Assembly (NCBI GenBank): GCA_002793855.1
Contig: PFET01000001.1
Coordinates: forward strand, 19,520 to 83,519
DNA length: 64,000 nucleotides
DNA from: Candidatus Uhrbacteria bacterium CG10_big_fil_rev_8_21_14_0_10_48_11
Lineage (GTDB): Bacteria > Patescibacteriota > Patescibacteriia > GWA2-46-9
Reading direction: 5' to 3'
Made by a program: the position numbers and the translations under genes. The number at the start of each line of letters is the position of its first letter. The stretch's first letter is position 1. Under the pieces are notes generated by a model. It made no database searches, was not told where the DNA came from, and saw only the letters and a list, made by a program, of their open reading frames with translations. Below, piece by piece: positions 1,959 to 59,848 of the stretch.

Positions 1959-4046
1959 CTAAGAAGGCAAAGCAATTACGCTCACGAGGTCTCGAACTCT
2001 AGCGCGCAGTATAGGATAGCGTGCTAATTTTTTATCTTTTTTAAATAAATAGTTCGCTGCTTCTTCAGCTTTTTCTCTTAGTGACTGGTCAGCCAAAACG
2101 ACCGCTGAAATGCCGTGACCGGATTGAGCGGTACCAAGCCACTCTCCCGGCCCGCGCTCAGCAAGATCGTACTCTGCTAGTGCAAAAGCGCTTGCGGTCT
2201 TAGCAAAGTAGCGCAATCGACCTAAAACTCGCTCATCCATTTTTTCGGTAAAAAGGAGGCAATAAGCTTCCGCACCAGAACGCCCAATGCGACCGCGCAA
2301 CTGGTGAAGCTGCGCGAGGCCAAAACGGTCTGCCCCTTCAATTAGCATGATGCTCGCCTGCTTCACGTCTACACCAACCTCAACTATAGACGTAGTAACG
2401 AGTATGCGAACGGCTCCCTTTCGAAAATCTTCAAGCGCTTTTACTTTTTCTTCGGCTTTCATTTTTCCATCAAGGTACCCAACCGTTACATCTGGGAAAA
2501 CTTCTGTTGCTAGTCGCTTATACTCAGCTTTTGCTGCACGTGCTTCCAGTTTACTTGAAGGATCAATAAGCGGACACACAACGTACGCCTGCTCGCCAGC
2601 TAACACGCGCTTTCTGAGTCGCCGTTCTACTTCGCTCCGCTCTTTTGGTCGCACGACAATAGTATGCACTTTTCTGTTGCCTCGCGGCATTTCTTGAAGC
2701 GTAGAAATAGCAAGATCACCATAGGCAACAAGCTGCAGGGTTCTAGGAATGGGTGTTGCTGTCATCGAAAGAAGATGCGGAATCATTGCTTTGCCTTTCT
2801 GCTGTGCCGAGAATCGCTGCAGGACACCAAACCGATGCTGCTCGTCTACCACAACAAGGGAGAGCTTTGAAAATTTAACCTTTGCATTAAAAAGCGACTG
2901 CGTTCCTACAATAACCTGAACCATACCACTGCCAAGTAGCTCTTCAACTTGTTTCTTGCTGACTATTTCACCATTGATAAACGATTGCTTGGCCGTCAGC
3001 AAAGCCACAATTATTTTTTTCTTTTGAAACCATCCGGAGAGGACCTCATACTGCTGGCGGGCAAGAATTTCCGTGGGCGCAAGGTATAAAACTTGACCAC
3101 CGCTGCTAACCACCATGAGAGCTGCTATAGCCGCAACGGCGGTTTTTCCACTACCTACCTCCCCTGCCAAAAGTCGTTGCATGGGATACTGCTTTGCCAC
3201 GTCAGATCGAATAGCCGCCACGGCAAGCTGTTGCTCGTTAGTTAACGAAAAGGGCAGTAGTTGCTCTAAGGTTTTTATCTCTTTGTCGTCAACAAGAATC
3301 TTTGGCGCACGGTACTCTCGCCGCTCACTTGCTCGGACGAATCCGGCGAGAAGACAGACCAGTAGGTCGTCAAACAATAGCCGCACGCGAGCACGTTCCG
3401 CCTCTGCTCTGCTTCTTGGCCGATGAATGGACTGCAAGGCGGCGCCGCATGAAGGTAGGGCGTACTTTACTAGCAAATCTGATGGCACGTCATCGCTGAC
3501 CTCTTCGCTAAGTGGTACGACACCCGCAATCCAACGCCGAAGCTGCCACTCGTGCAGACCTTTGGTGAGCGGATAAATGGGGAGCAAGTATTTTGTAAAA
3601 AAAGGCCTTTTCGCGGCTACCTCCCATAGCGGATTTACTAGCTGCCGTTTTCCGCGCGCCAAGGTAACCGTTCCGGCGATAATCACCGTTTCTGTTTTAG
3701 GTAATCGTGCTGCCGGATAGTAACTGAACCACACAACGGATAGAGCCCCCGTCGCGTCCTGAAAGAGCCCCTCGTTTACCACAAGCCCCCTGTTCGTCCT
3801 GCTCTTCCTTGTGGTCAGATTGGTAACTTTTCCTTCTAATGACACCGGCGACCCGAGAGGAGCGGCCCGGACGGTGACTGTTTTTGTATAATCCTCGTAA
3901 TCGGTAGGCAGGTGGTAAAGAAGATCTTGAATCCTTCTAATGCCCAACTTAGCGAGCAAACGGGCCGCAGCAGGACCAATGCCAGGAAGTTCAGTAACCG
4001 AACGCTCTAGCTCTACGGTCTTTTTACCGTTTGTTGATAGGTGCAT
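1959..4046 (-). CDS. recG: ATP-dependent DNA helicase RecG
   Basis: Helicase motif I GSGKTAVAAIAALM and motif II DEQHRFGV. The N-terminal wedge/OB region is present, and the 695 aa length is typical of RecG. Confidence 0.88.
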   Translation of the reverse strand: MHLSTNGKKTVELERSVTELPGIGPAAARLLAKLGIRRIQDLLYHLPTDYEDYTKTVTVRAAPLGSPVSLEGKVTNLTTRKSRTNRGLVVNEGLFQDATGALSVVWFSYYPAARLPKTETVIIAGTVTLARGKRQLVNPLWEVAAKRPFFTKYLLPIYPLTKGLHEWQLRRWIAGVVPLSEEVSDDVPSDLLVKYALPSCGAALQSIHRPRSRAEAERARVRLLFDDLLVCLLAGFVRASERREYRAPKILVDDKEIKTLEQLLPFSLTNEQQLAVAAIRSDVAKQYPMQRLLAGEVGSGKTAVAAIAALMVVSSGGQVLYLAPTEILARQQYEVLSGWFQKKKIIVALLTAKQSFINGEIVSKKQVEELLGSGMVQVIVGTQSLFNAKVKFSKLSLVVVDEQHRFGVLQRFSAQQKGKAMIPHLLSMTATPIPRTLQLVAYGDLAISTLQEMPRGNRKVHTIVVRPKERSEVERRLRKRVLAGEQAYVVCPLIDPSSKLEARAAKAEYKRLATEVFPDVTVGYLDGKMKAEEKVKALEDFRKGAVRILVTTSIVEVGVDVKQASIMLIEGADRFGLAQLHQLRGRIGRSGAEAYCLLFTEKMDERVLGRLRYFAKTASAFALAEYDLAERGPGEWLGTAQSGHGISAVVLADQSLREKAEEAANYLFKKDKKLARYPILRARVRDLVSVIALPS

Positions 4047-4075
4047 GGTAAGCGGTGATGTATCTTTTTCTCTGG

Positions 4076-4149
4076 TGTCCCCAGGAGGAATCGAACCTCC
4101 AACCTCCAGCTCCGCAAGCTGACGCTCTATCCAGTTGAGCTATGGGGAC
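4076..4149 (-). tRNA. tRNA-Arg (anticodon reads GCG)
   Basis: The reverse complement folds as a cloverleaf: acceptor gtcccca/tggggac, D arm gctc..gagc, anticodon stem tcagc/gctgg with loop ttGCGga, T arm ggagg-ttcgatt-cctcc. Confidence 0.75.
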
Positions 4150-4265
4150 AGACAGAGAAAAAAATGCATCGCCTTTACCCTGCCGCGACATATACAGTAC
4201 AAGGAAATCTATCTGAAAAAGAAAAAAAGCGCAATCCTGCGCTTGCCGCACGCACTGCCGGCTAC

Positions 4266-4772
4266 TTACAGCCGCAGCAATCGAGAAAGGGCATCGCTGA
4301 TTGGTTCGCTTTCTCGGCTCAAGTCTTCTTCTAAATACTTCAGCAACAAATCGCGGACATCAAACGGATCTGCCTCGCCAAGAGGTATCGGCAACCGCGG
4401 TTTCCAATCACTCTGAAAATCGAAGTACAACGTTTTCGTGTGCGGTGGTTCGAAAATAATCCAGAAGCTCTTCATTTGACTATAGGAGTAGAGCTTCTCT
4501 CCAACTTTAATGCCGTCTCCTCTCAGTGAAATCGCAAGCCGAGGTGCTGTCTCAAGATGGCGTGCTACGACAATGACTGCAGTAAGTAGCACCAGTATTG
4601 CCCCCAGAAAATTACCATACCAAACCGCAAGACCGAGCAACAAAATAGCAACAATGCTTGCCACAATGTACCACTGCCGGTCTCGTGCATACTCGGGGTA
4701 CTCTGAAATCACCCAAGTATAGTATGCCGGTACTTCTACGTCTTCGATGTCTTCCTTTTCGTTTATAGCCAT
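4266..4772 (-). CDS. hypothetical membrane protein (two TM segments, acidic termini)
   Basis: Intact 168 aa ORF with a central pair of hydrophobic helices and no recognisable motif. Confidence 0.45.
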   Translation of the reverse strand: MAINEKEDIEDVEVPAYYTWVISEYPEYARDRQWYIVASIVAILLLGLAVWYGNFLGAILVLLTAVIVVARHLETAPRLAISLRGDGIKVGEKLYSYSQMKSFWIIFEPPHTKTLYFDFQSDWKPRLPIPLGEADPFDVRDLLLKYLEEDLSRESEPISDALSRLLRL

Positions 4773-4885
4773 AGCTTATATATTATACGATACTCTAGGG
4801 TAAACTACAACGAGCATCGTTGACGTATTTATCACTAATCGGTACACTTGCAGCCACTGGTTTACGTTCTATCGTTTGTAATTCG

Positions 4886-4979
4886 GGAAGGGTGGCTGAG
4901 TGGTCTAAGGCGACGGTTTGCTAAACCGTTGTATGGTGTTTACGCCGTACCGAGGGTTCGAATCCCTCCCCTTCCGCCA
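4886..4979 (+). tRNA. tRNA-Ser (GCT)
   Basis: Acceptor ggaaggg/cccttcc, anticodon loop ttGCTaa, long variable arm, T arm gaggg-ttcgaat-ccctc, and the CCA is encoded. Confidence 0.9.
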
Positions 4980-5054
4980 GAAAAAAGTATCCTGAAGTAC
5001 TTCTAAAAACAGCATAAAAAAGCACGCCGCACAGAAAGCGCTACAATTTTTTAT

Positions 5055-5088
5055 GGTGGGGTGGCCGAGTGGTCGATGGCGACAGTCT
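5055..5088 (+). repeat. duplicated 5' half of tRNA-Ser(TGA) (34 nt, 33/34 identical to 5121-5154)
   Basis: Direct repeat ggtggggtggccgagtggtcgatggcgacagtct lying 33 nt upstream of the intact tRNA. Confidence 0.7.
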
Positions 5089-5120
5089 AGTCCGCCTTCA
5101 CTTACAAAATGCACCAGAGC

Positions 5121-5207
5121 GGAGGGGTGGCCGAGTGGTCGATGGCGACAGTCTTGAAAACTGTTAGACCCGAAAAGGTCTCGTGGGTTCGAATCCCACC
5201 CCCTCCG
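5121..5207 (+). tRNA. tRNA-Ser (TGA)
   Basis: Acceptor ggagggg/cccctcc, anticodon stem acagt/actgt with loop ctTGAaa, long variable arm agacccgaaaaggtctc, T arm gtggg-ttcgaat-cccac, discriminator G. Confidence 0.9.
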
Positions 5208-5260
5208 CCCTGGTGCGTTCTCATTACGGACGATCCGCAGAAGTTTGACCAAAGAAAAAC

Positions 5261-5343
5261 GGAGGCGGAAAAACGGTTAGCCCCAAAAGGTCTCATGGGT
5301 GCGGGCTTGTGGTGAGTCCTACGAACTAATCCCACCCTCTCCG
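5261..5343 (+). pseudogene. degenerate tRNA-Ser-like remnant
   Basis: Retains ggagg..gttag, a ccccaaaaggtctcatgggt variable-arm-like segment and gaactaatcccaccctctccg (compare ttcgaatcccaccccctccg). The D and anticodon arms are lost and an insertion is present. Confidence 0.4.
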
Positions 5344-5422
5344 AAGAAAAAATTGCTGCCCTATAACCAGCATTTTTTCTTATGGTAACATTGATAAACT
5401 ACCTTTTAATAAATATAGAGAT

Positions 5423-5767
5423 TTGAAGATATGTCCCACGTTTTTCATCATTTGGAAAAGAGAAAACTTGCAACAAAAAAAGCTAGAACCCTATCCTCGT
5501 CATAATCAAGTATATAGATTTGTTGATCGTTTTATCTATGTTGCTGGCATGCTAGGCCCTATTATGACTATTCCTCAAGTAGCAGCCATCTGGATATCAA
5601 AACAGGCAGCGGGCGTGTCAGCACTTTCTTAGGCAACCTACGGCATTATATCAATCTTTTGGTTACTATATGGCATTTTGCATAAAGAAAAACCAATCAC
5701 TATTATTTACAGCATTTAGATTGCTCTCTATCTCATCATTGTGGTAGGTGTGCTGCGTTATGGTTAA
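5423..5767 (+). pseudogene. SemiSWEET/PQ-loop family small membrane transporter gene interrupted by two in-frame TAG codons
   Basis: One reading frame gives ..FIYVAGMLGPIMTIPQVAAIWISKQAAGVSALS*ATYGIISIFWLLYGILHKEKPITIIYSI*IALYLIIVVGVLRYG* with a PQ motif and a WxxYG motif. The TAG codons are at 5630-5632 and 5717-5719, there is no frameshift, and the final stop is TAA at 5765-5767. The stretch is visibly AT-rich compared with its neighbours. Confidence 0.5.
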
Positions 5768-5782
5768 ATAGTTACCTCCTTA

Positions 5783-6499
5783 TTACCGCTGCTGCGAATC
5801 ACTTCTTGCAATCACAACCGCCCAAACGCTTAAAGCTCCAGCTTCAAATAGAACTCGTCCTGCTTCTTTTGGCGTAGAACCTGTAGTAACAATGTCATCA
5901 ACCAAAACACAATGTCTTCCTTGCACTTCTGCCGGGCGGCTACAGACAAACGCATTTCGTACATTATGAGCACGCTCTGCGGTGCGTAATCCGTATTGAG
6001 GAGCGGTATGCCGATCGCGCCGGAGTGCCGAACAGAGCGAAACACTATATTGCGCGCCAAGCTTCTTTGTCAGAGCTTCAGCTTGATTAAATCACCGCTT
6101 ACGAAAGCGACACCGGCTTAGCGGTATAGGAACCAGTACCGAACTTTCTTTTGCAAAAAATATTGGCAGCTCGGTGTTAGCGAAGCATTTCCCAAGGTAT
6201 TGACCCAGCTCCTCGGCTGGTCCGTACTTCCATGTGCGAATGAGATTACGCCATAACCATTCATCGTAAGTTGCTCTAACGAACAGGCCATTAAGCCGAC
6301 GCGGCTTTTGGCATTGATCGCAGGTTTTGCCGTAGGCACTTGGCAATAGGCAGTAGGCACAGCGTTGGATAGGTTCTACTGGTCGCTTTGAAGAGCATAA
6401 TGGGCATACCCATTCACCCTCGATACCGCAACCGATACAGAACACAGGAAAGAGCACTCTCGTTAATTCTTCAACCGCGCGTGACAGCAACGTACGCAC
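5783..6499 (-). pseudogene. comFC: competence protein ComFC (phosphoribosyltransferase family) with a single in-frame TGA
   Basis: N-terminal Zn finger (CIGCG..CPLC..CAYC..CDQC), then PIPLSRCRFRKR-[TGA at 6092-6094]-FNQAEALTKKLGAQ.., then the PRTase motif HCVLVDDIVTTGSTPKEAGRVL. The TGA falls exactly where ComF proteins have the conserved Gly of R-x-R-G-F-N-Q. The frame is otherwise continuous to TAA at 5783-5785. Confidence 0.7.
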
Positions 6500-6510
6500 G
6501 GAACGTTACG

Positions 6511-7104
6511 CTACTTGGTTTCGTCGAAAAAACCGTCCACCAACCAGTTGTCACCCTGGCGAACCAGATCAACCCTTACGGTAGCATTCTCTACTTTTGC
6601 TGCATCACTACCAACAACGATGGTACGCTGAATACTTAACCGAACCGTTGCCTTGTTATCCCCTTCTTGCACAAGATGCGCACTGAGAACACGAGTGATT
6701 TCTGACGCAAAACCGTCTTTATACGTAGTGCGTAGTTGTGGTAAATAAGTACCCGTTGCCCATGACGAAAAACTATCTGTAAGTAGAGGTGCTAGTTCTA
6801 CAATTCCGGCGAAACCTTCATCGGTAGAGAACGTCCCAAATCGTTCTGTAAACAGACGCGCTAACCGCGTTGCGCTTGTTTCTGCGGTAACCGTAACTGG
6901 CGCCACAGGCGTTACTGTCCCGTCCGCTGCGTCACCCTGCTGGTTACTGTTGGTGTTTCCGATATTGGCAGCTGGTTTACTGCCACCAGATTGACCGCCA
7001 TACCACCACAACCCACCACCAACTGCTGCTATCAGCACAACTACAAGAACGGTGATAGCGATAATTTTTTTTCTATCCATAAAAATCGCGTTAATTAACA
7101 TCAT
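6511..7104 (-). CDS. bitopic membrane protein, possibly VirB8-like T4SS component
   Basis: N-terminal TM (IIAITVLVVVLIAAVGGGLWWY), a Gly/Ser/Asn-rich linker, and a ~120 aa C-terminal domain. It overlaps the VirB4 gene by 14 nt, which suggests co-translation. The VirB8 assignment rests on topology and context only. Confidence 0.4.
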   Translation of the reverse strand: MMLINAIFMDRKKIIAITVLVVVLIAAVGGGLWWYGGQSGGSKPAANIGNTNSNQQGDAADGTVTPVAPVTVTAETSATRLARLFTERFGTFSTDEGFAGIVELAPLLTDSFSSWATGTYLPQLRTTYKDGFASEITRVLSAHLVQEGDNKATVRLSIQRTIVVGSDAAKVENATVRVDLVRQGDNWLVDGFFDETK

Positions 7105-8965
7105 CTAAACCTTGCACCGCCGCCGTATCATCGCCACCGACTTGCTCCTTTGCCGCTTCCATTTCAAGTAGCTGACGCGGATCGGTGGTTATTAGTTGAT
7201 CTTCGGTGTAGGAAGCCACCACCTTAATGGCAGCGTGCTTTGGACCGGCAAAGAAAATACCCTCGCCAACGCTTCCCTCGAGTAGCAGGTACTTCTCACC
7301 TTCGGTCAAAAGGAAAGTTTTTTGGATAAGGTCGATAGCGGCCGGTGATTGCTTTAAGAGAAGTTGCATTGCCGAGTTGTTGACGACCGCTTGACCGTAA
7401 GGTGAGCCAAGAAAGTCGTTAACGTCCTGAGAAATAGTAGTAAGTCCGAGATAGTACTTCCGTGCACGTTTAGCAAGCGCAAAAATGAACTTAGCGCTGT
7501 CTTCGTGCTGCATCATAATCCATGCCTCCTCAATAATGAGGATGCGCTTCTTGCGTTCGCTTCTGACCAAATTCCAAATATTATTGATGATGGTGTACAT
7601 GGCAATCGGCCGGAGTTCATCCTCAAGATCGCGAATTGAAAACACGACCAACTGGCTGTCAGTAATGACGTTGGTTGGGCTATTGAGAAGTCCGGCAAAC
7701 GTACCGCGGGTGTATTTCTGTAGTCGTGCAACCAAATCTTTTGTCCCCTGCATACCCTCAAGCACATCCTCGAGATCAGCTAACACCGGCGGCTCGACGT
7801 TTATTAAGTCAGCGTCTGCGGTGATATCTTTCTTGGCGTACGTTTCAAGTAATGCCCGGTCAAGCAGAGAGTCTTCTTCGCTAGTAAGCCGCCCAAGCAT
7901 AATGCGCAGTAACCCTTTTAAGGTAATAACGGCGCTTCTAATAATGTCCCCCGTTTGCACATCTTCACCGATGCCTTTGGGTAAATCAAAAGGATTAACT
8001 TTGCTTTCGCTCGAAAGCGATATGTTGAGGTACGTACCGCCAACGGCTTCTGAGAGGTGCTCGTATTCTTTCTCGGGGTCAATGACGATAATGTCCACGC
8101 CCATCATAAGGGACCGCAAGACCTCGAGCTTTACGGTATAGCTCTTACCAGCACCAGAAGTGGCGAACACCACCGTGTTGGCATTCTGTAGTGAAAACCG
8201 ATCGAAGAGAATCAAGCTATTATTGTGCCGGTTGATGCCGTACAAAATACCATTGTCGCTCGTCAGCTCTGAGGATACAAAAGGAAAAGCGGACGAGATG
8301 GGTGACGAATTCATGTTAAACGTAATCTGTAGCTCATCTACGCCGAGCGGCACGGTAGAAATGAAACCCTGCTCCGCCTGGTAGAGTACCTTGCGCGCAT
8401 AGACCAGTTTGGTTCCCAGCAGCTGAATGATGTCATCCGTTGCGGTATTGAGATGCTCTAGCGAATCTGCGTAGATGGTAATGTAAAGCCCGAACTGGAA
8501 AAACTTTTCCACTCCCTGTGTCAAATCGTCACGTAATCGCTCAATGTCATGAAGCGCCGTTTCTTTAATCGGATCGCGTGGTGCTCCCTTCTCGTGGTCG
8601 GCAACAATCTCTGCCTCAAGCGCACCAACCTTATTTTTTAGCTGCTTTAAAATAACCGCCGCGTCTACTGGGTAGACGTAGAGCGAGAGGTCAATGGTGC
8701 CGCTAATGTTAATAAGGGGCGCAAACCAACCGACAGAAATATAACGAGGATAATCGGTAACAAAGATAGTTCTAACAAATTGGTCGTTCAGTTTTATATA
8801 CGAGGCCTCAATTTCAAGAGCCGACGGCGCGACAAGATCACGCAACTTAATGGTACCGGCTCGATACGCTTCAGCGGCGGCAAGTACTTCCTTCCCCTCT
8901 TTAGGGCTTAATGCTTTTTCCTCGACCGTTTTGGGTTGCTTCTTTTTTTTGTTAAAGCCAATCAT
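7091..8965 (-). CDS. VirB4/TrbE-family T4SS ATPase, C-terminal (ATPase) portion
   Basis: Walker A VFATSGAGKSYTVK, IIVIDPEKEYEHL, and Walker B-like hydrophobic stretches followed by EEAW. The overall layout matches Gram-positive/CPR VirB4 homologues such as the PrgJ/TcpF type. Confidence 0.8.
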   Translation of the reverse strand: MIGFNKKKKQPKTVEEKALSPKEGKEVLAAAEAYRAGTIKLRDLVAPSALEIEASYIKLNDQFVRTIFVTDYPRYISVGWFAPLINISGTIDLSLYVYPVDAAVILKQLKNKVGALEAEIVADHEKGAPRDPIKETALHDIERLRDDLTQGVEKFFQFGLYITIYADSLEHLNTATDDIIQLLGTKLVYARKVLYQAEQGFISTVPLGVDELQITFNMNSSPISSAFPFVSSELTSDNGILYGINRHNNSLILFDRFSLQNANTVVFATSGAGKSYTVKLEVLRSLMMGVDIIVIDPEKEYEHLSEAVGGTYLNISLSSESKVNPFDLPKGIGEDVQTGDIIRSAVITLKGLLRIMLGRLTSEEDSLLDRALLETYAKKDITADADLINVEPPVLADLEDVLEGMQGTKDLVARLQKYTRGTFAGLLNSPTNVITDSQLVVFSIRDLEDELRPIAMYTIINNIWNLVRSERKKRILIIEEAWIMMQHEDSAKFIFALAKRARKYYLGLTTISQDVNDFLGSPYGQAVVNNSAMQLLLKQSPAAIDLIQKTFLLTEGEKYLLLEGSVGEGIFFAGPKHAAIKVVASYTEDQLITTDPRQLLEMEAAKEQVGGDDTAAVQGLDDVN

Positions 8966-16404: not shown

Positions 16405-19400
16405 CTACTGACTAATCGTTATAGCGTCACCGGAAGACTGCCAAGCGGCTGCGTGACTCGCGCTGCAGTCTCCCCTGCCGTCAGTATTTAACTCGTTGTA
16501 GCCAGTTTGCCCAAAGAGAGGATTGCTGTTACCGGTTGACGCGTAAGCGCCATTGCACCATCCCCAGTTATCCAAAATTTGTACGCGTGGTGTCACTTGA
16601 TAGATACCATTCACTATTGTCGTGGTCTTGGCACAGCTTCCCTCTTTGACGCAGCGAGCCACATCATCGTACGAATAACTATGCACGAGCGAGATGGGGT
16701 TTTGGTCCGAAGGGTGGCTCGCAAACTTTAGACCGGTTTGCACCGTTCGTGACCCGTCTCCCCAATCAACAATGTAGCGCACAATTGGTTCCTGTTCAGG
16801 ATTGGCAATGGCCGTAAAACTGAGGGTTACTGACCCCACTTTTGTAATGGTATTGGCCGCTCCTGAAAGTTCTACAACTGGGATAGCCGGTACAACCCCG
16901 CAAATCTCAGATCCAACACGAACATTCAGCGTTGGACCTGAACCACATTGTTCCGTTGGTACTATTAATTCTTTACTGCCGGTTTCGACATACCGATACC
17001 CGTCGGGTGTTGACTGCCACTCCCACACACCATAGCTCTGAACAAAAAGCTGTTGCAATACCTTAACTGCCTTAGTTAAACCATCAGCATAGGTCGACTC
17101 TTGAATCTCATTCAGCATGGCACCACTACTCGAACACTGTGAGCTAAATAATGGCTTATAGGTGCCTATTAATAAGCTGTTAATAGGGTGACAAGAATAT
17201 GGACCACCTGCACGCGCCTGACTTGTGCTGGTTGAAGAAGCTGATGGCTCTGCAAAAAGTGGTTGCACGCCGACAAATGTTGTTGAGTCCCAAGCAAGCG
17301 GATCGTCAGCAGGAAATGGCGGAACAACACTACCGAATGGGGGCGAATCTGTTGTAACCTTATATTCATAATTATCCTCTGCAGACGATTCATAACTAGT
17401 GCCTCTGCCCACCTTTATAGATGCTTGACTACCAGGGGTAACCCGAGATGCATAGGCACGGTTCTGCCCTGCTGAACCGACTGTTTGCATGACTGCGTTA
17501 CAGCTAAACGAAGGTCGCGCCCACAAACCGAGCGGCGTAATGTAGTCATCAGAAGACAATGACTCGATTATCAGGTAGCGGAATGGTCCCGGAATCCGAT
17601 TACCATTACTGTCGACTGCCCAGGCAACGTCAGCCCACATCTCCGCCCAACCATTGTTTGCTTGATCAGGCGAAGGACGATTGCCGAGGGATGGCGGACA
17701 AGCGGCCGATTCACACCATTCATTAATATAGTAGAGGCTACTAAGATCCTTGCTGACGTATATTTTGTATTTGTCATCACCGTCACCACCCTTGTTATTT
17801 TCCATCCAAACGCGAATTTCGCACCCGGCATGAATAAGAGGGGTAGCAGAATCTACCGCGTGGTAGTTTGCGTCGCACTTGCCGGGTTTATCAACAAGAC
17901 CACCTACCGCATATCCTTCAGTTGTTGAGTCCGCATTGCGATAAAGATCAAACACTACTTTTTCGGTTTTGTCTATTTTTCCGCCGTTATATTCAGTTTG
18001 TTGGCCATGTTTGTCTATCTTAAAGTGACTGAAAGTATCAGTTGGAACCGCCGGGCTCTTCTTACCACCCGTGTAATCAGGAACAGTCGAAGCACCAACA
18101 GAAGAATGCAATAAGGTTGCCCAGCCATCAACAACATCTAGACACTGATACAAGGGTATCGGACCTTGGTAACCAACATGGTCCTGTTCCGTATCTTCTC
18201 CAATGATGTTGTCGACCGGCCACCACTGCAAACAGTTGCTACTGTTCTGTGGATCGGGTGTTAAACAATACCCCAATTTCCCGCGATGACGGAGGCCGTT
18301 GTCATCATTGTATTGACAAGAGAGTGACGTCTCTTCTGGGTACAGGCGGCAGGACTGTGATGCATAGCTGTAGTCGAGCGTCTCGATGCCATTTTCGTAA
18401 TCTACGTTCGGAAAATCTGGATCTACATGAAGGATGTCACAAGTATTTCCAGCACCACAATCGTCATCGACTTGGCATAACTTTGTTACATTGTTAGAAC
18501 AATAACGGTATTCATTGCGACGATACTCAAGTGCGGGCTGGAGCTTAATATCGTCTACGTACCAATTACCGGAGCTATTTTCCGTACTGCCTCCTTTGGC
18601 AAACCAGCCGAATTGAAGGCGGATATAACGAGTATCCTCATCAGTAGTGAATTTATCCACTTTTGTGGTCCAGTCAAAACCTGCACCTGTATCGAGAAGA
18701 GCTAAGAATTTACAGGTACCGGCGGTATTACAGGGTACGAGATCACCATTTGTTTTGTACTGAAAGACTCTGATGCCAGCGCTCTTACCCGAGAAATGCA
18801 CCGTGTTGACATCAGCAGACAAAATATAATCTGCTTCGCCAGCGACATTAATTGTTCCGCTATAATTAGCGAGATTGGGTGCTAAACTGTCATCAATAAA
18901 CTGCGGAACATCAGGTACCTTATGGTTAGCATTCACTTCTAAAAACGCCCTGCCTTCTCGTGGGTACAGTATGCCAACAGACTGAGCGCTTACCGGATTA
19001 TTGATGACTCTAAAATTCTGTCCATTACCCCAGCCAACCCAACTCACCGCATTACCTTGTGTGCTTGGTATTTCAAAGTTTGCATTCACGAGTAGCGCTA
19101 ACTGGCCAACTTGCTCCATATAACCCGGACTAATGTAACCCTGAAGTAGCCTTGGTGTGCATTTCCCTGAACCACAATCGGCATCAGTAGTGCAACTCGT
19201 TGACGAATTGTTAGAACAGACATTACCCCAATTAAAACCAACGCTCGAATAACCAGAGCGGTCTTTTAATTGATCGACGGTAGAAGCGGCGTACGTAAGG
19301 TCTTTGTCTGGCTCATCAAGAGTCGTACGTATACATTGACCTTTATCATCGAGCTGTTCGCATCCCTCGACAGCAAGACAGATATTTCGCCTTACACTAT

Positions 19401-22400
19401 TGCGTGTTACCGTACGGGCTGTCTTACAAGCGAGCCAACTACCACACTCTCGGCTCGGTTGTACCTTGACCAGCAAATTAGAATCGCGCTGAAACTGACA
19501 ATCGCTATCAGCGGTACATGAAAGGCCAACCGTACCTCGACAAATGCCAGAAGTTCCCGTGGCTTGATCGGCACCAACGCAAGAATATTCTGTTCTAGTC
19601 GTACCATTAGGAGTCTTTGTATCCCCTAACGGGCTCATATCAGCGTCGTAGGTATTGACGATAGGCGACTTGTAACTCGTTTGGAAACTAGCAAGGACGC
19701 AGTTGGCATTATTGACCGTACCGGCACAACTTGCAGTATCAAGCTGATCCACAAGTTCGTAATGAATACTGGCCTCGCGAAGCGACACATTTCTTGTCTT
19801 TACTGCGCCAGTTGCAAATTCACCGCTCACGTTAGATGGCAATAAATCATGAGCTTGTCCGACGCGGACGCTACAATTTTCTACGTCATCAGTATTTTTT
19901 ACGTAGAAGCTTACACTAAACCGATCGAACGAATCTTTCTTTGTAGGTTCAATAAAAGTATACGGCGACCCTTGAATGGATAGTGACGAACCAGGACACT
20001 GGATACCGAGATAAGCATTTGCGGCAAGCGAACCGCTGACAGCTTCCGCTTCTGCTGAAAGTACATAAAGCGTACGCTTGCGCAAAGTTACGTTTGACTG
20101 TTCAAACCCGCCACTGCTAATAGTTAAGGTATTCAGGTTTTGGTTGTAATGATAGGTTGTTGACGGTGAAGCAATCGACGTCCATGATCTTGGTGTTGTG
20201 CCATCAGAAGCAATAAACGAACCATTAATCAGTAGATCCCGAGTACCGTCTGAGCGAGGGTCAACTATTTCTTTGCAACTATTCTGCTGCACGGGGCAAG
20301 TACCAACGTAGCCAGCTATTGGCTCCTGGGCGGTCGAACCAGCAATTTGTACACGAGGTACGGTTGTATTGGTAATAGTACGATTACAGTCAGGACTTGT
20401 CGCGGATGAATCTTTCTTATACCAACCGGAAACTGGACGGTCGGTGTGGTATTCACAGGTTTGATCTCCCGGATCTCTAAAGTAGTAAACACTTCCGGCG
20501 GCATCCTTAAAGGCAGAACACTGCAACTGATCAAGCTTGCAGAGAATAACCCCATAATCATCGGGATTATTTTTAAGGTAAACACTTGACCACGGTGTTG
20601 CGCTATCGCCAAGAGCATCACGAAGAATACGCTGAGCATCACTCGCCGCTAATGTACCTGCGTCAAACTTTGCAACCAGCGAATTATAACCGGCAGCCAA
20701 AAGCTTGCTTCGCAAATCAGGCAAACACGATCCCCCTGCTGCGCACTTCAATGTCTCTAGTGCAAGTGCAGTGTTGGCTTTGATTGACCGGTCAACTTTA
20801 CCCAACGCCTGACAACCCTGCGCTTCTGTCTTGCAAGTTTTTGTCGGATCGTTAACAAGGTAGTCAACCGAATCGGCCGGTACGGTAATAAGGCTATTGT
20901 CTTCAGCGTCATTAAATGACCTCGCAAAAGGCGCGTCACCTCCAACCGTAGTGTTCTGCGTGTCGATGACCGCTTCACAGCCAACAACCTTAGCGTGACA
21001 GGCGGCGCCAAACTGCCAAACGTCTTTGCTTGAGCCGTCACTTACCTGATACTGCTGACAACCAAGGAACGGCTGACGAGCGGCATCGTTAGAGTAACAG
21101 GAAAGCGGTGTACGCCAACTATTCTTGACGAGATAATGAGTGTCGGTAGTTGTTTTGAGCTCTATGTTGTCAATAAATACCTTGCCGGTACCGGATGGCG
21201 TTATTGCTAATGTCGTCACCGCATCGCTAGCACTGACAGCAATACTCACTGGATCACTTTTGATTTGTCGCCATTCACTAGTTAACAACGCATCCGTTAC
21301 CAAGGTACCATTGGTTACCCCGTTACCACTGATGGCGGCGCTGATCGCCGCTGTTGCCGTACCGGTTTGTGTACGTGCCCAGAAAGTAACGACATAAGTT
21401 GCCGGGGCAATTGTACCGGAGGTACCACTGGTGCTGCTACCAGCATTAACGGTAACCGCTTTCTCGGCAACCGCCTCGGTAATCTCGTACGAGTGTCCGC
21501 CAACAACACTAGAAACAGCGCTCAACTGTCCGCCAGACCACTCTGCAGTACCTTTCTCGAACGTATCATTCAATACTGTTCGGTAGCTAGCCGACGTTCC
21601 TCCGCGATACTCACGACAACCAGCAACCGCAGCGCTACACTGTCTACCACCATTTGGTACGGCCTGATAAATACATACTTGAATGCTGGTATTCCACCAA
21701 CCGTTCGAATTAGCACAGTCTTGTTGGTTAGAATCTGTCTTTCGCAACGGATGGCAAGAATCGGTAACGCTCACCGTTTTTGAAAGCAACCGGTAAGAGA
21801 TTTGACCTGTTTCGTTATAGAACTGTCGACAATCGGGGTTTGACTGATAAGTATTCTCGTTACAGGTTCGCCACGCTGTATCGCCTGCGTTACTGGTATC
21901 GCTGCATGAAGCGCTTATCCCATCGCTACTCCAATTGATGTGCGTGCAGGGAGCCGCCAAGTCGTTACCGGTGCTGCCTGCAGTCGTGCTGAATCCGGAA
22001 GGATTCGTCGCCTCTGTTTTCTTCAGTTGGAATACGCGCAACTGGAAGCCAGTTTCGTCAGACCCTTCCCATGTGTAGAACGTACCACTGTCAGTTCCTC
22101 CTGGCTTTTGGCAAAACTGTACCTGCTGATAGTACTCACGCGCCTCACCGCCGGATGTTTCCTTGTCGAGATTTGTAAACTCATCACAACCCACCGCAGC
22201 CGCAGGACAACTTTGACCTGTTGCAGGAATGAGATCGACAAACTTTGGTTTCTCGAAAAAGGTTGCCGTCTGAGTATAAGTATCAAAACCTACACACTCT
22301 GTCGGACAACTCTGTCCGCTTACAGCCGTTACTGTTGCTGTCCCGTTTGCAGGGGTGTAGCTCCGGCAACCAACCTCCGCCGGTAAACAATATCGCGCAT

Positions 22401-25140: not shown

Positions 25141-25146
25141 AATTGC

Positions 25147-37732: not shown

Positions 37733-39547
37733 ATGACAGAACAAAACACGTTCAAAAGCCGGCCCTCTCGCGGGCAGGGCCGCTACCGATATCGGGGCGC
37801 AAAAGCTGCTACTGGCGGCAAGCGAGAACGAACAGAAACCACTCAACGCTCGACTCCATCAATGGCGAGCGGTGCTACCCCCAAGGGAACGCTTCGGGTC
37901 ATCCCCATAGGTGGGCTGGAAGAAATTGGTCGCAACTGTACCATCTTCGAGTACGGTGAGGATATCATCGTGGTCGATATGGGCATCCAATTCCCGGAAG
38001 AAGACATGCCGGGGATTGATTTCATTATTCCGAATCTTGCCTATCTCAAGGGTAAAGAAAAACGGATCCGCGGTGTCTTTATTACCCATGGACACATGGA
38101 CCACCTTGGTGCCATCCCCTACCTGATGCAGCAAATCGGCAACCCGCCAATTTACGCCGCACCGCTGACGCTAGGCATTATTCAACGTCGACAGGAAGAA
38201 TTTCCGCGGGCACCAAAACTGCATCTCATAAAAATAGACTCAACAAAGCGTGTTCCGGTTGGCAAGCACTTCGTTATCGAGCCTTTCCACGTTAATCACA
38301 ACATTACCGACGCCTTCGGACTTCTCATTCACACACCGGTCGGCACCATTGCGACTACTGGCGACTTTAAGTTTGACTACACACCAGTAGACGAAAAACC
38401 AGCGGAAATCGCACGCCTCGCAGAAGTCGGCAGCAAAGGAATACTCGCGCTAATGGCGGACAGCACCAACGCAAACTCGCCGGGACATCAAATTTCAGAA
38501 AAAGATGTTGGCGAAAATCTTGAACAGCTCATCAGAAAAGCCGATGGTCGTATTATTATCGGTGCTTTTGCTTCTCTCTTAACAAGGCACCAGCAGGTTA
38601 TTGATATTGCCGAAAAAGTGGAACGTAAAGTATTGCTGCTGGGTCGAAGCATCCACAACTACGTTGAAATTGCCCAGCGCCTTAAATACTTCAAAGTCCC
38701 TAAAGGCATTCTCATTGAAGAAGCTGATTTTAATAAATTGCCTGACAATAAAGTACTTGTCATCTGCACGGGGGCCATGGGACAGAAGAACTCCGCCTTA
38801 ATGCGCATCGCCAGTAACGAACACCGCTTAATCACGCTCAAAAAAGGCGACACTATTCTCTTCTCGTCGTCAGTCATTCCGGGTAACGAACGAACGGTAG
38901 AGCGACTGCAAGACTCGCTGGTTCGCAAAGGGGCAACCGTCTACAACAACGCAATGATGGACATTCACACTGGGGGTCACGCCAAACAAGAAGATCTCAA
39001 GTTGCTCCATCGACTTATTCGACCGAAGTATTTCATCCCTATCCACGGTAACCACTTCCGGCTCAAGGTACATGGTAATTTAGCGATTGAAACGGGCGTT
39101 GACCCAAAAAATGTTTTCATCGCGGACAACGGACAGATTATAGAGTTTACTAAAACAGGCGGCACGCTCACTAAAAAGCACGTCCCCGCTGATCACGTTT
39201 TTGTCGACGGTCTTGGTGTTGGCGATGTTTCAAATGTCGTCCTGCGAGAACGGCAAGCAATGGCCGAGGAAGGTATGTTCGTTATCATTGTAACGATAGA
39301 TGGCAAAACTGGACGAGCCATTGGCGAGCCAGATATTATCTCTCGCGGATTCATCTATATGAAAGAAAACGCGCGCTTAATTGGTAAGGTGCATGATAAG
39401 GTGAAAAAAATTCTTGACGAACCAAAAAAGGACACGCCTGCTTTTGACGCCTTCATCAGAGAGAAAATTAGAAACGAGATTGGTCAACTACTCTATGCCA
39501 ACACCCGTCGCCGACCAATGGTGTTGCCGGTTGTGAACGAAGTGTAG
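37733..39547 (+). CDS. rnj: ribonuclease J (beta-CASP metallo-beta-lactamase)
   Basis: HGHMDHLGA motif, the beta-CASP region, and the RNase J-type N-terminus (LRVIPIGGLEEIGRNCTIFEY). An Arg-rich N-terminal extension is present. The start was chosen at MTEQ (37733). Confidence 0.88.
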   Translation: MTEQNTFKSRPSRGQGRYRYRGAKAATGGKRERTETTQRSTPSMASGATPKGTLRVIPIGGLEEIGRNCTIFEYGEDIIVVDMGIQFPEEDMPGIDFIIPNLAYLKGKEKRIRGVFITHGHMDHLGAIPYLMQQIGNPPIYAAPLTLGIIQRRQEEFPRAPKLHLIKIDSTKRVPVGKHFVIEPFHVNHNITDAFGLLIHTPVGTIATTGDFKFDYTPVDEKPAEIARLAEVGSKGILALMADSTNANSPGHQISEKDVGENLEQLIRKADGRIIIGAFASLLTRHQQVIDIAEKVERKVLLLGRSIHNYVEIAQRLKYFKVPKGILIEEADFNKLPDNKVLVICTGAMGQKNSALMRIASNEHRLITLKKGDTILFSSSVIPGNERTVERLQDSLVRKGATVYNNAMMDIHTGGHAKQEDLKLLHRLIRPKYFIPIHGNHFRLKVHGNLAIETGVDPKNVFIADNGQIIEFTKTGGTLTKKHVPADHVFVDGLGVGDVSNVVLRERQAMAEEGMFVIIVTIDGKTGRAIGEPDIISRGFIYMKENARLIGKVHDKVKKILDEPKKDTPAFDAFIREKIRNEIGQLLYANTRRRPMVLPVVNEV

Positions 39548-39566
39548 AGACCGCGTCGACCTTTCT

Positions 39567-44546: not shown

Positions 44547-46163
<1,617 letters not shown>

Positions 46164-59802: not shown

Positions 59803-59848
59803 AATAATGATATATTAATTTACTAACTTTTATAAGTATACACTTTTA

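What the first reader, a model, noticed from the sequence alone, without database searches (positions are those of the whole stretch)
5040..5780. tRNA-Ser(TGA) flanked by a duplicated 5' half and a degenerate 3'-like copy, next to an AT-rich islet
The first 34 nt of the tRNA are repeated almost exactly 66 nt upstream (5055-5088). A degraded tRNA-like remnant lies at 5261-5343. Immediately downstream the composition becomes visibly AT-rich, and a SemiSWEET-like gene with two amber codons sits there. This pattern resembles the scar of one or more integration/excision events at a tRNA gene.
Basis: seen in the sequence. Interest (0 to 1): 0.55.

Follow-up and report, generated by a model that had tools for sequence, protein, structure and literature searches.

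The report
Live tRNA nested inside dead tRNA
In this Uhrbacteria (CPR) genome the working tRNA-Ser(UGA) gene sits inside a short palindrome-ended insert that split an older copy of the same gene at its anticodon, and at least two, probably three, related species show the same layering, so this looks like repeated tRNA gene replacement rather than the scar of a large integrated island.

Summary
Window 5055-5088 repeats the tRNA-Ser(UGA) 5' half (33/34). Window 5270-5343 is a decayed 3' part. The next 430 bp are 36% GC and hold a SemiSWEET pseudogene. Five independent assemblies are identical here.

The two fragments are the halves of one older tRNA-Ser(UGA) gene. It was cut between anticodon nucleotides 35 and 36 by a 179-bp insert (5091-5269). 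The insert has palindromic ends (TCCGCCTTC / GGAGGCGGA). It carries the live tRNA, which has its own 12-bp leader-trailer helix. The dead outer gene keeps its own flanking inverted repeat (5037-5052 / 5347-5362).

Relatives L137 and L139 show the same architecture with statistical support; L152 shows it by eye only. L142 is a clean, fragment-free locus. The leader-trailer helix covaries across the four species (91% paired; 13 of 14 pairs changed on both sides).

tRNA-Ser(UGA) alleles differ far more between these genomes (68-97%) than the neighbouring tRNA-Ser(GCU) (86-96%).

There is no integrase, no distal repeat and no kb-scale element between the copies.

The SemiSWEET gene is separate, decaying cargo. 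It lies in a hypervariable slot between ComF and the tRNA. The enzyme that makes the insertions is unknown.

The parts
4820..4848 (+). Promoter-like site (TTGACG-17-TACACT) upstream of tRNA-Ser(GCU). It is the likely start of a transcript that runs through the whole tRNA-Ser region.
   Evidence: Consensus scan. The same sequence is conserved in relative L137 within a 166-nt, 79.5%-identical block. Function is inferred, not shown.
4885..4979 (+). tRNA-Ser(GCU) with encoded CCA. This is the 'empty-site' state relative to L133, L137 and L139, which carry a 150-240-nt GC-rich insert at this 3' end.
   Evidence: The displaced CCCCTTCCGCCA fragment of L137 aligns to window 4968-4983.
5037..5052 (+). 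Left arm of the outer inverted repeat that brackets the dead outer gene. It pairs with 5347-5362.
   Evidence: the repeat finder I4: 16 nt, 81% complementary. It forms the outermost helix of the minimum-free-energy (MFE) fold and the centroid fold of 5040-5360 (z = -3.85).
5055..5090 (+). Unit A: the 5' half of the dead outer tRNA-Ser(UGA) gene. It covers nt 1-36, which is standard positions 1-35, at 34/36 identity to the live gene. The two differences are A3T and T34A.
5091..5269 (+). 179-bp insert that splits the outer gene between G35 and A36. Its ends are palindromic: TCCGCCTTC (5091-5099) and GGAGGCGGA (5261-5269), giving 9 bp with one G-T pair.
   Evidence: Sequence read. The arms pair in the MFE fold. 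The same CTTG|...|AAAAC insertion point and TCCGCC...GGCGGA ends occur in L137 and L152.
5108..5120 (+). Leader arm of the helix that extends the acceptor stem of the live tRNA.
   Evidence: the repeat finder I1: 20 nt, 90% complementary. Fold z = -5.37. 12 of 14 positions are paired (P = 3e-4). Covariation across four species.
5121..5207 (+). Live tRNA-Ser(UGA) (unit B). Its acceptor is GGAGGGG/CCCCTCC and no CCA is encoded (the gene is followed by CCC).
   Evidence: ARAGORN and Rfam tRNA, 61.1 bits. 97% identical to the L137 gene.
5208..5219 (+). Trailer arm. It pairs with 5108-5120.
5270..5343 (+). Unit C: the 3' half of the dead outer gene, starting at A36. It has stem-breaking substitutions in the anticodon, variable and T stems. 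Its 3' acceptor strand CCTCTCC matches the consensus of relatives.
   Evidence: ARAGORN accepts A+C as a cloverleaf only after the T-loop insert is removed.
5301..5327 (+). 24-27-nt insertion in the T loop of unit C, of unknown origin.
   Evidence: Alignment of C to B. Removing 5301-5324 restores an ARAGORN-recognisable cloverleaf.
5347..5362 (+). Right arm of the outer inverted repeat. It is followed by a weak hairpin and a T run (about 5354-5381).
   Evidence: The terminator role is inferred; the scan did not flag it.
5431..5767 (+). SemiSWEET-family pseudogene inside the 36%-GC islet (5350-5780). It has three lesions: a +1 frameshift in the A7 run (5475-5481) and TAG codons at 5630-5632 and 5717-5719. 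Both TAG codons fall in alignment columns where most homologues have Trp.
5782..6499 (-). ComF-like gene, a neighbour that bounds the variable slot. It has an in-frame TGA at 6092-6094, at the invariant Gly of the RGFNQ motif.

Best explanation
The locus is layered. An older tRNA-Ser(UGA) gene was cut exactly between anticodon nucleotides G35 and A36 by a 179-bp insert with palindromic ends. That insert carries a complete replacement tRNA-Ser(UGA) gene.

The two halves of the old gene survive as unit A (5055-5090) and unit C (5270-5343). The old gene still has its own flanking inverted repeat. It is now decaying.

The live gene (5121-5207) brings its own leader and trailer. These pair to lengthen the acceptor stem to about 19-20 bp.

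Inferred steps: the whole region is read from the conserved promoter ahead of tRNA-Ser(GCU). The long helix is cut by a double-strand RNase, and RNase P plus 3' trimming then release the tRNA. The outer halves are by-products. They persist mainly because they lie between the live gene and the old promoter and terminator.

The event is gene replacement by insertion. Disrupting a single-copy essential tRNA is tolerated only if the incoming DNA supplies a working copy. It has happened more than once in this Uhrbacteria clade.

The agent is not identified. It could be a site-specific recombinase acting at the anticodon loop, a hairpin-ended single-strand element, or capture of transforming DNA.

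The AT-rich SemiSWEET pseudogene is unrelated cargo in the hypervariable slot between ComF and the tRNA.
For: Shown directly:

- A and C abut the insert at adjacent anticodon positions (35 | 36), and the insert ends are a 9-bp palindrome.
- The two spacers are reverse complements of each other, not direct repeats (I1).
- A second inverted repeat brackets A...C (I4, outermost helix in the MFE and centroid folds).
- Relatives have the same architecture. L139 has a 5' fragment, a 12-bp leader/trailer helix and a well-formed 3' half, and the outer halves pair in both the MFE and the centroid fold (z = -6.84). L137 has a 5' fragment ending ...GTCTTG, then TCCGCCTCC ... AGGCGGAAAAAC. L152 reads ...GTCTTG | hairpin, TCCGCC-GTA-GGCGGA | AAAAAAC.
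- The flanking fragments score above all 200 shuffles (p = 0/200) on both sides in the window and L139 and upstream in L137; the L137 downstream fragment is weaker (p = 0.02). No fragment is found beside tRNA-Ser(UGA) in L142, L132, L133 or L102, nor beside any other tRNA of the window.
- In L139 the outer halves covary at pair 7:66 (T-A, against G-C in the live gene). Spliced together they are accepted by ARAGORN as a tRNA. Window A+C is accepted once the T-loop insert is removed.
- The leader-trailer helix has 12-14 of 14 positions paired in the window, L137, L139 and L152 (P = 3e-4 to 1e-6 each), against 5 of 14 in the fragment-free L142. Across the four species 91% of cells pair, against 57% in shuffles (0 of 500 shuffles reach it) and 30-46% when the partner is slid. 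13 of 14 pairs have changes on both sides.
- Allele turnover: tRNA-Ser(UGA) identity among the five close genomes is 68-97%, against 86-96% for the adjacent tRNA-Ser(GCU). For the window versus L142 the figures are 68% and 95%.
- Unit C keeps the CCTCTCC acceptor strand of relatives, while the live gene has the compensated GGAGGGG/CCCCTCC.
Against: - There are only four loci, all from metagenomes and none closer than about 72% protein identity, so the order of events is reconstructed and not observed.
- The window's A and C mismatch at pair 3:70 (T.T).
- The L152 5' fragment was recognised by eye and is not significant against its own tRNA.
- The insert ends in L139 (TCCCG...CGGGA plus 5 extra nt) differ from the TCCGCC...GGCGGA of the other three.
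- The 12-nt AGGCGGAAAAAC shared with L137 is not significant on its own (E = 0.35).
- No enzyme is identified.
- Leader-trailer pairing also occurs at tRNA-Arg and tRNA-His, which have no fragments. The helix may therefore be an ordinary pre-tRNA feature of this lineage rather than a mark of mobility.
- The covariation could reflect independent origins of each insert rather than selection.
- Expression and processing are untested.
Confidence: 0.5

Rival explanations
1. Classical integrase scars. One or two tyrosine-integrase elements integrated at the anticodon loop of tRNA-Ser(UGA). One element carried a 3' half and the other a 5' half. Their interiors were later deleted almost completely, leaving a displaced 3' fragment (C) and a displaced 5' fragment (A).
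For: - Fragment boundaries at the anticodon loop and T loop match the known crossover subsites, and both 3' fragments (3760 of 3919 islands) and 5' fragments (159 of 3919) are documented (PMC4383910).
- Relatives show textbook-looking displaced 3' ends after small inserts at tRNA-Ser(GCU); those of L133 and L137 carry CCA. In L139 there are two in tandem.
- The slot beside the tRNA is hypervariable.
- The islet is compositionally deviant.
Against: - Leader and trailer would then come from different elements, yet they are complementary over 12-14 bp in four species.
- The left junction (5' half | TCCGCC...) does not regenerate a tRNA.
- Only 30 nt and 62 nt lie between the copies in the window, and 13-17 nt in L139. 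Near-total deletions would be required independently in each lineage.
- No integrase domain was found in the 39 frames scanned across the window, and there is no distal repeat.
Confidence: 0.2
2. Ancient tandem triplication of tRNA-Ser(UGA), followed by internal deletions. Copy 1 lost its 3' half and copy 3 lost its 5' half.
For:
- Unit A is followed by TCCGCC, like a tRNA 3' end, and unit C is preceded by CGGAGG, like a tRNA 5' end.
Against: - The spacers are not direct repeats but reverse complements.
- The deletion end-points would have to fall at 35/36 on both sides in several species.
- The outer halves pair with each other and share their own flanking inverted repeat.
- The L139 outer 3' half has a well-formed T arm with compensated changes, which points to a different allele rather than a decayed local copy.
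- Neutral flanks between the window and L137 cannot be aligned, so fragments that old should have vanished.
Confidence: 0.1
3. A functional composite RNA. The outer halves would not be junk. They would form a tRNA-like scaffold or a split tRNA around the live tRNA, for example to guide processing, to titrate a tRNA-binding protein, or to yield tRNA halves.
For: - Nested folds are far more stable than shuffles (z = -3.85, -6.84 and -6.28).
- The 5' mini-element of L137 closes with a perfectly compensated 7-bp helix (GGAGGCG/CGCCTCC) that differs from its live tRNA.
- The architecture persists in species whose intergenic DNA is otherwise unalignable.
Against: - Unit C carries mismatches in three stems plus a T-loop insert.
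- The L137 3' fragment is truncated.
- Outer halves evolve much faster than the live tRNA: about 67% against 97% between the window and L137.
- L142 does without them.
Confidence: 0.1

Closest known systems
Genomic islands and prophages integrated into tRNA genes by tyrosine integrases (Islander definition; anticodon-loop and T-loop/junction crossover subsites)
   Same: The target is a tRNA gene. The break falls in the anticodon loop, with a second discontinuity in the T loop of unit C. A displaced fragment lies in the same orientation as the working gene. The function of the target is preserved by DNA that comes with the insert. Relatives have an uninterrupted site.
   Different: The insert is 179 bp and carries nothing but a tRNA. 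It brings a whole gene rather than completing the broken one at the junction. Both a 5' and a 3' fragment are left, tightly flanking the live gene. The insert ends are inverted repeats, not direct repeats. No integrase was found in the window.
Split, permuted and intron-containing tRNA genes of Archaea (Nanoarchaeum split tRNAs; bulge-helix-bulge (BHB) introns). From my own knowledge.
   Same: A 5' half and a 3' half meet in the anticodon loop. Complementary sequences just inside the break can zip the halves together.
   Different: This is a bacterium. The joined halves are degenerate (stem mismatches, T-loop insert). The intervening sequence is itself a complete tRNA. No splicing endonuclease or BHB motif was examined or is expected.
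Group I introns in bacterial tRNA anticodon loops
   Same: An insertion of a few hundred nt or less within the anticodon loop of a bacterial tRNA gene.
   Different: No group I core was detected by Rfam in the region at E <= 1 or in the window at gathering threshold. The content of the insert is a tRNA, and the interrupted gene is dead.
Hairpin-ended single-strand transposable elements and their miniature derivatives (IS200/IS605 and their miniature palindrome-ended derivatives, PATEs; IS91, which inserts 3' of CTTG/GTTC without target duplication). Recalled from memory: a lead, not a test.
   Same: Insertion immediately 3' of CTTG with no target duplication (L137, L139, L152; CTAG in the window). 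Hairpin-forming ends. A very small size. TCCGCC-loop-GGCGGA hairpins are over-represented in the window (4 found against 0.07 expected).
   Different: No HUH (single-strand DNA) transposase was found in the window. The end sequences are not conserved in L139. A passenger tRNA is not a known feature of these elements.
Homing by free-standing GIY-YIG endonucleases in tRNA gene clusters (phage T4 SegB). From my own knowledge.
   Same: Small GIY-YIG ORFs sit at this very locus in four related loci (L102, L131, L140, L152). The tRNA-Ser(UGA) allele turns over faster than its neighbour.
   Different: The window has no GIY-YIG gene. The ORFs encode only 77-83 aa, which is the catalytic domain alone. 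Homing normally gives clean conversion, not nested fragments.

Membership tests
tRNA-gene integrative island / att scar | A displaced tDNA fragment in the same orientation as the intact gene, bounded at the anticodon loop or at the T loop/junction | tested here: met
   A ends at G35 and C starts at A36. C is also interrupted in the T loop. The subsites are as listed in PMC4383910.
tRNA-gene integrative island / att scar | The fragment and the regenerated gene mark the two ends of an island, with element DNA between them | tested here: not met
   Only 30 nt lie between A and B, and only 62 nt between B and C. No other fragment lies anywhere in the 64 kb.
tRNA-gene integrative island / att scar | A tyrosine integrase gene within or next to the element | tested here: not met
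   No integrase, recombinase or transposase domain was found in the 39 window ORFs, pseudogene frames and gene fragments scanned against Pfam. A few ORFs were not scanned, among them the 2,913-aa ORF at 16405-25146 and those at 1-589 and beyond 59.8 kb.
tRNA-gene integrative island / att scar | The junction itself regenerates the target gene (host part plus element-borne part) | tested here: not met
   The left junction reads 5' half | TCCGCCTTC..., which is not a tRNA. The live gene lies entirely inside the insert.
tRNA-gene integrative island / att scar | An uninterrupted site in related genomes | tested here: met
   L142 has tRNA-Ser(GCU), a 25-nt spacer, tRNA-Ser(UGA) and a terminator, with no fragments.
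Split / intron-containing tRNA (archaeal type) | The halves meet in the anticodon loop and have complementary sequences at the break | tested here: met
   The break is at 35 | 36, with the 9-bp TCCGCCTTC/GGAGGCGGA palindrome.
Split / intron-containing tRNA (archaeal type) | The joined halves give a canonical, functional cloverleaf | tested here: not met
   ARAGORN rejects A+C unless 5301-5324 is deleted, and then calls a 4-nt anticodon. Mismatches occur in the acceptor (3:70), anticodon, variable and T stems.
Split / intron-containing tRNA (archaeal type) | A bulge-helix-bulge motif and a splicing endonuclease | not tested
   The gene context is bacterial (RadA/Sms, RecG, ComF, VirB4). Neither the motif nor the enzyme was searched for.
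Group I intron in a tRNA anticodon loop | A group I catalytic core | tested here: not met
   Rfam at E <= 1 over 3800-6600 and at gathering threshold over the window returns only tRNA-type hits and weak chance matches here.
Tandem tRNA gene duplication | Direct repeat units that include the spacer | tested here: not met
   The spacers at 5091-5120 and 5208-5269 share no direct similarity and are reverse-complementary.
SemiSWEET (PQ-loop / MtN3_slv) transporter | A PQ-loop domain and family-level homology | tested here: inconclusive
   Pfam MtN3_slv gives E = 1.2e-3 and 19.3 bits, below the 23.7 cut-off. However, seven homologues at 41-48% identity keep all 17 invariant columns, and one is named SemiSWEET by NCBI.
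SemiSWEET (PQ-loop / MtN3_slv) transporter | An intact reading frame | tested here: not met
   There is a +1 frameshift at 5475-5481 and two in-frame TAG codons. The rest of the window is consistent with the standard code.
Hairpin-ended ssDNA transposons (IS91, IS200/IS605 and their miniature palindrome-ended derivatives) | Insertion 3' of a short fixed target with no target duplication | tested here: inconclusive
   CTTG | insert | AAAAC in L137, L139 and L152, and CTAG in the window. The target rule for these families is recalled from memory.
Hairpin-ended ssDNA transposons (IS91, IS200/IS605 and their miniature palindrome-ended derivatives) | A cognate HUH transposase | tested here: not met
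   None was found in the window ORFs scanned. The rest of the genome was not available.

The most novel reading that the evidence does not exclude
tRNA-Ser(UGA) genes in Uhrbacteria may be self-contained, hairpin-bounded cassettes that insert site-specifically between nucleotides 35 and 36 of the resident copy. Each insertion would kill the resident copy and replace it. The result is a 'Russian-doll' form of tRNA gene turnover, in effect a selfish replacement drive for an essential tRNA. The agent would be a recombinase not yet identified, or single-strand or RNA-mediated insertion of the stem-bounded precursor.
Probability: 0.25. Interest if true: 0.75.

Novelty: new variant of a known kind. 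Interest (0 to 1): 0.5.

Why it matters
If the nested reading holds, three things follow.

- An essential tRNA gene can be replaced by insertion into itself. That mode of tRNA gene turnover differs from both island integration and tandem duplication. It may help explain why tRNA alleles in CPR bacteria do not track the genome phylogeny.
- It offers a bacterial parallel to the idea that split and interrupted archaeal tRNA genes arise from insertions at the anticodon loop.
- It flags a practical annotation problem, because half-tRNAs right next to live genes confuse tRNA callers and assemblers. Several independent contigs end inside this region.

The 19-20-bp acceptor-plus-leader/trailer helices, which covary across species, also suggest an unstudied route of pre-tRNA processing in this lineage.

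Tried and rejected
- **Alternative genetic code.** I asked whether TAG or TGA is a sense codon here. Standard-code ORFs already cover about 56 of 64 kb. The runs of same-frame ORFs are ordinary tightly packed genes, each with its own start. The TAG and TGA codons in SemiSWEET and ComF are therefore lesions. Both TAG codons fall in columns that are mostly Trp, the TGA sits at an invariant Gly, and a frameshift accompanies them.
- **Suppressor or odd tRNA hidden in unit A or C.** ARAGORN and Rfam find none, and the folds of A and C alone are no better than shuffles.
- **Group I intron or another known RNA.** No Rfam hit in the region at E <= 1, nor in the relatives L102, L132 and L133 at E <= 0.1.
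- **Distal att repeat.** None in the 64 kb.
- **Integrase or transposase.** None found in the 39 frames scanned.
- **Recent inversion of the tRNA block.** Distant relatives (L102, L132, L133) have the tRNAs on the ComF strand. The closer relatives L137, L139, L142 and L152 share the window's orientation. The inversion is therefore old and unrelated to the fragments.
- **Phage origin.** The live tRNA's 33-nt core is absent from IMG/VR. A looser pattern hit one unrelated viral contig that ends in tandem tRNA-Ser copies.
- **GIY-YIG endonuclease remnant in the window.** None.
- **Searches that failed.**
  - The RecG single-protein scan of GTDB genomes found nothing.
  - The tRNA pattern scan was too broad; most hits were Bacteroidales.
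  - Global alignment of the window and L137 flanks gave nothing outside the tRNA.
  - The last contig look-ups mostly returned contigs that break just before the tRNA region.
Full report
**1. What is in the sequence**

ARAGORN and Rfam agree on two serine tRNA genes on the + strand. They are tRNA-Ser(GCU) at 4885-4979 and tRNA-Ser(UGA) at 5120/5121-5207/5210.

The first 34 nt of the UGA gene recur at 5055-5088 at 33/34 identity, with 31 nt exact, 66 nt upstream. Read base by base, the copy continues to 5090. That is 36 nt at 34/36 identity, ending at anticodon nucleotide G35, with the substitutions A3T and T34A.

Downstream, 5270-5343 matches the tRNA from A36 to the discriminator. It has several substitutions and a 24-27-nt insertion in the T loop. 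Both flanking similarities beat all 200 shuffles.

The next 430 bp (5350-5780) are 36% GC, against a window mean of 47.4%. That is in the lowest 2.5% of 400-nt windows.

This stretch holds a SemiSWEET-family reading frame with TAG at 5630-5632 and 5717-5719, plus a +1 frameshift in an A7 run at 5475-5481.

Contigs from five different metagenome samples (three ENA, two JGI) are 100% identical to the window over this region. The arrangement is therefore real and fixed in the population.

**2. Organism and context**

The 168-aa protein next to the tRNAs is named by NCBI as a hypothetical protein of 'Candidatus Uhrbacteria bacterium CG10_big_fil_rev_8_21_14_0_1...', a CPR/Patescibacteria lineage.

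The window is consistent with the standard genetic code.

Gene order is RadA, RecG, tRNA-Arg, hyp168, the tRNA-Ser region, the SemiSWEET pseudogene, a ComF-like gene, then a type IV secretion cluster with VirB4 and PrgI. A 16S rRNA gene lies at 44551-46169.

No integrase, recombinase or transposase domain was found in the 39 ORFs, pseudogene frames and gene fragments scanned across the window. A few ORFs, including the 2,913-aa one, were not scanned. No further tRNA-Ser fragment occurs anywhere in the 64 kb.

**3. Anatomy: a nested structure, not a tandem one**

The sequence between A and the live gene is not similar to the sequence between the live gene and C. The two are reverse complements at two levels.

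- The inner level is 5108-5127 with 5200-5219. It is 20 nt and 90% complementary. It extends the acceptor stem by about 12 bp (fold z = -5.37).
- The outer level sits right at the two breaks. TCCGCCTTC (5091-5099) pairs with GGAGGCGGA (5261-5269).

A third inverted repeat (5037-5052 / 5347-5362; 16 nt, 81%) brackets A...C.

In the minimum-free-energy (MFE) fold and the centroid fold of 5040-5360, A pairs with the 3' end of C around the whole structure (z = -3.85).

A stops at G35 and C starts at A36. So A and C read as one older tRNA-Ser(UGA) gene, interrupted between positions 35 and 36 by a 179-bp palindrome-ended insert that contains the live gene.

C is clearly dead. It has mismatches in the anticodon, variable and T stems, and it carries the T-loop insertion. 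ARAGORN accepts A+C as a cloverleaf only after 5301-5324 is removed.

C keeps the acceptor strand CCTCTCC that relatives have. The live gene carries the compensated pair GGAGGGG/CCCCTCC.

**4. Relatives**

Distant relatives (about 35-41% identity for hyp168: L102, L132, L133) establish the old synteny: ComF, two tRNA-Ser genes, hyp168, tRNA-Arg, RecG.

Closer relatives were found through the hyp168 family: L137 (72%), L139 (58%), L142 (57%) and L152 (48%). All share the window's orientation, with the tRNA-Ser pair opposite to ComF and hyp168. That orientation is therefore ancestral in this subclade.

The DNA between ComF and the tRNAs differs in each genome:

| Genome | Cargo |
|---|---|
| Window | SemiSWEET pseudogene |
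| L137 | P-type ATPase, HAD hydrolase and a hypothetical gene |
| L142 | nitroreductase |
| L139 | a 247-aa ORF (between the two tRNA-Ser genes, not next to ComF) |

None of this cargo is flanked by tRNA repeats. The slot is a hypervariable hot spot. SemiSWEET is one decaying occupant of it.

**5. The same nesting in relatives**

- **L139.** It has a 5' fragment (positions 1-35, ending ...GGCTTG). Next comes a 12-bp leader CCCGTTAAAAGC, the live tRNA and the trailer GCTTTTAACGGG. Then follows a well-formed 3' half starting GAAAAAC, with its own variable arm and a T arm (GCAGG/CCTGC) that differs from the live gene by compensated changes. The outer halves covary at pair 7:66 (T-A, against G-C). 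They have their own leader/trailer complementarity (CTTCAGGC / GCTTGAAG). They pair in both the MFE and the centroid fold (z = -6.84). Spliced together they are accepted by ARAGORN as a tRNA.
- **L137.** It has a diverged 5' fragment ending ...CAGTCTTG, then a small hairpin, then TCCGCCTCC ... AGGCGGAAAAAC. The live tRNA follows, bounded by CTAGTCGGTAGTGC / GCAGTGCCGACTAG, and then a truncated 3' fragment.
- **L152.** It shows ...GACGGTCTTG | TGTCCC-TGT-GGGACA, TCCGCC-GTA-GGCGGA | AAAAAAC upstream of a live tRNA bounded by CCGCCCTAAA / TTTAGGGCGG. A 3'-end-like AAATCCCAATCTCTTC lies downstream. This 5' fragment was read by eye and is not statistically significant against its own tRNA.
- **L142.** It has none of this: two tRNAs 25 nt apart, followed by a terminator.

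Leader-trailer pairing is 12-14 of 14 positions in the four nested loci (P = 3e-4 to 1e-6 each) and 5 of 14 in L142.

On a gapless four-species alignment, 91% of cells pair. That compares with 57% in shuffles (0 of 500 reach it) and 30-46% when the partner is slid. 13 of 14 pairs changed on both sides. With four sequences this shows that the pairing, not the sequence, is what recurs. It cannot separate selection on a helix from independent origin of each insert.

**6. Allele turnover**

Among the five close genomes, tRNA-Ser(GCU) is 86-96% identical, as expected for vertical descent. tRNA-Ser(UGA) ranges from 68 to 97%. For the window versus L142 the figures are 95% for GCU and 68% for UGA. 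The UGA gene, and only it, carries flanking fragments. No other tRNA in the window does.

**7. Interpretation**

*Best reading (confidence about 0.5).* This is gene replacement by insertion. An incoming, self-contained tRNA-Ser(UGA) unit landed between nucleotides 35 and 36 of the resident gene, killed it, and took over its role. This has happened repeatedly in the clade.

It explains four things:
- the adjacent break points;
- the inverted rather than direct flanks;
- the pairing outer halves, which have their own inverted repeat;
- the different inner and outer alleles, and the fast turnover.

Such events would be visible only when the insert brings a working copy, because the target is presumably a single-copy essential tRNA. 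In these streamlined genomes, deletion would then trim everything else.

The following are inferred and not shown:
- transcription from the conserved promoter-like site at 4820-4848;
- release of the tRNA from the 19-20-bp helix;
- the agent of insertion.

*Classical integrase scars (about 0.2).* These fit the break positions (PMC4383910). They also fit what happens at the neighbouring tRNA-Ser(GCU) in relatives. They do not explain the leader/trailer complementarity, the non-regenerating junction, the tiny spacers or the missing integrase.

*Tandem triplication with decay (about 0.1).* This fails on the inverted spacers and the fixed break points.

*A functional composite RNA (about 0.1).* This is not excluded, but the outer halves look degenerate and evolve fast.

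**8. Caveats**

- All comparisons rest on four metagenomic loci that are not very close to one another.
- The insert ends in L139 differ from those of the other three.
- The 12-nt match to L137 is not significant alone.
- Leader-trailer pairing also occurs at tRNA-Arg and tRNA-His, which have no fragments. It may be an ordinary feature of pre-tRNAs in this lineage.
- I found no description of this architecture in four literature searches. That is weak evidence of novelty. The known background is that partial tRNA genes arise from integration of kb-scale elements, with the complete and partial copies at opposite ends of the element (10.1101/2022.07.05.498093; PMC4383910).

**9. Verdict**

The 'integration scar' reading is partly right, because this is insertion debris at a hot spot. 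It is wrong in kind, because the fragments do not bracket an island. They are a dead gene wrapped around its replacement.

I rate it a new variant of a known kind, of moderate interest (0.5).

The bolder reading is that hairpin-bounded tRNA cassettes home into the anticodon of the resident copy. I put its probability at about 0.25. It would be of high interest if confirmed.

Noticed in passing
window 5782-6499 (-), TGA at 6092-6094: The ComF-like gene is interrupted by one in-frame TGA, exactly at the invariant Gly of the RGFNQ motif. Every other invariant residue is kept. The sequence is identical in the independent assemblies that cover it. This is either a very recent pseudogene or a read-through site.
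   Followed up: partly
L133:5641-5811; L137:~7545-7778 (-); L139:4929-5372 (-): A homologous GC-rich element of 150-240 nt (core AGCGAGCAAACNGNTTTGCTCGCGT...) follows tRNA-Ser(GCU) in three relatives. Each copy is followed by a displaced copy of the tRNA 3' end, which carries CCA in L133 and L137. L139 has two copies in tandem. The window has the uninterrupted site. It looks like a miniature, integrase-less integrative element or an unknown RNA. There was no Rfam hit in L133, the only one of the three that was scanned.
   Followed up: partly
L102:507-740; L131:2967-3200; L140:109-360; L152:489-725: Free-standing GIY-YIG ORFs of 77-83 aa sit at this same tRNA-Ser/hyp168 locus in four related loci, at different positions. 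The window has none.
   Followed up: partly
window 4073-4149 (tRNA-Arg) and 57938-58012 (tRNA-His); L142:6587-6661: Other tRNA genes also have complementary leader and trailer. The window tRNA-Arg has TTTTTCTCTG / CAGAGAAAAA. The L142 tRNA-Arg has 14 bp with a different sequence and no CCA. This suggests a lineage-wide pre-tRNA processing helix.
   Followed up: partly
window 48401-48430, 49086-49105, 63210-63249: TCCGCC-loop-GGCGGA hairpins have the same arms as the ends of the insert. They occur 4 times in the window, against 0.07 expected. Similar copies (ATCCGCC..GGCGGAAA) occur in intergenic DNA of L137, L139 and L140. This may be a dispersed hairpin repeat family.
   Followed up: partly
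window ~62600-63900: About 1.3 kb of GC-rich, hairpin-rich DNA with only short ORFs and no significant Rfam match at E <= 1. It contains a tRNA-3'-end-like string, ATCCCTGCACCCACCCTCCGCC, near 63268-63290. Its nature is unexplained.
   Followed up: partly
window 57900-62200; 39468-40647; 50094-50474: A second low-GC tract (down to 28% GC) lies beside tRNA-His and holds a PPDK_N gene fragment. Elsewhere there is a periplasmic-binding-protein gene split in two and an asparaginase fragment. The genome carries several gene remnants.
   Followed up: no
L045:~5228-5320 (-), L030, L101: In three Peribacteria/Peregrinibacteria genomes a 14-20-nt copy of the 5' end of tRNA-Ser(UGA), followed by a hairpin, lies 70-130 nt upstream of the gene. 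The arrangement is homologous between L045 and L030. The break is in the D loop, not the anticodon loop.
   Followed up: partly
L131 vs L132: These two genomes are about 90% identical in DNA from hyp168 onward. They lose all similarity exactly upstream of hyp168. L132 has ComF plus two tRNA-Ser genes there. L131 has zinc-ribbon proteins and a GIY-YIG ORF.
   Followed up: partly
L003, L004, L005 (ends at window 5420, 5278, 5190); L145-L148: Several independent metagenome contigs end inside or just beside the tRNA-Ser region. This fits repeats or strain variation breaking the assemblies there.
   Followed up: no
L151:6736-6966 (-): An IMG/VR viral contig ends in two tandem tRNA-Ser(UGA) copies, the first with a small insertion near its 3' end. 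It is unrelated to the window's allele.
   Followed up: no
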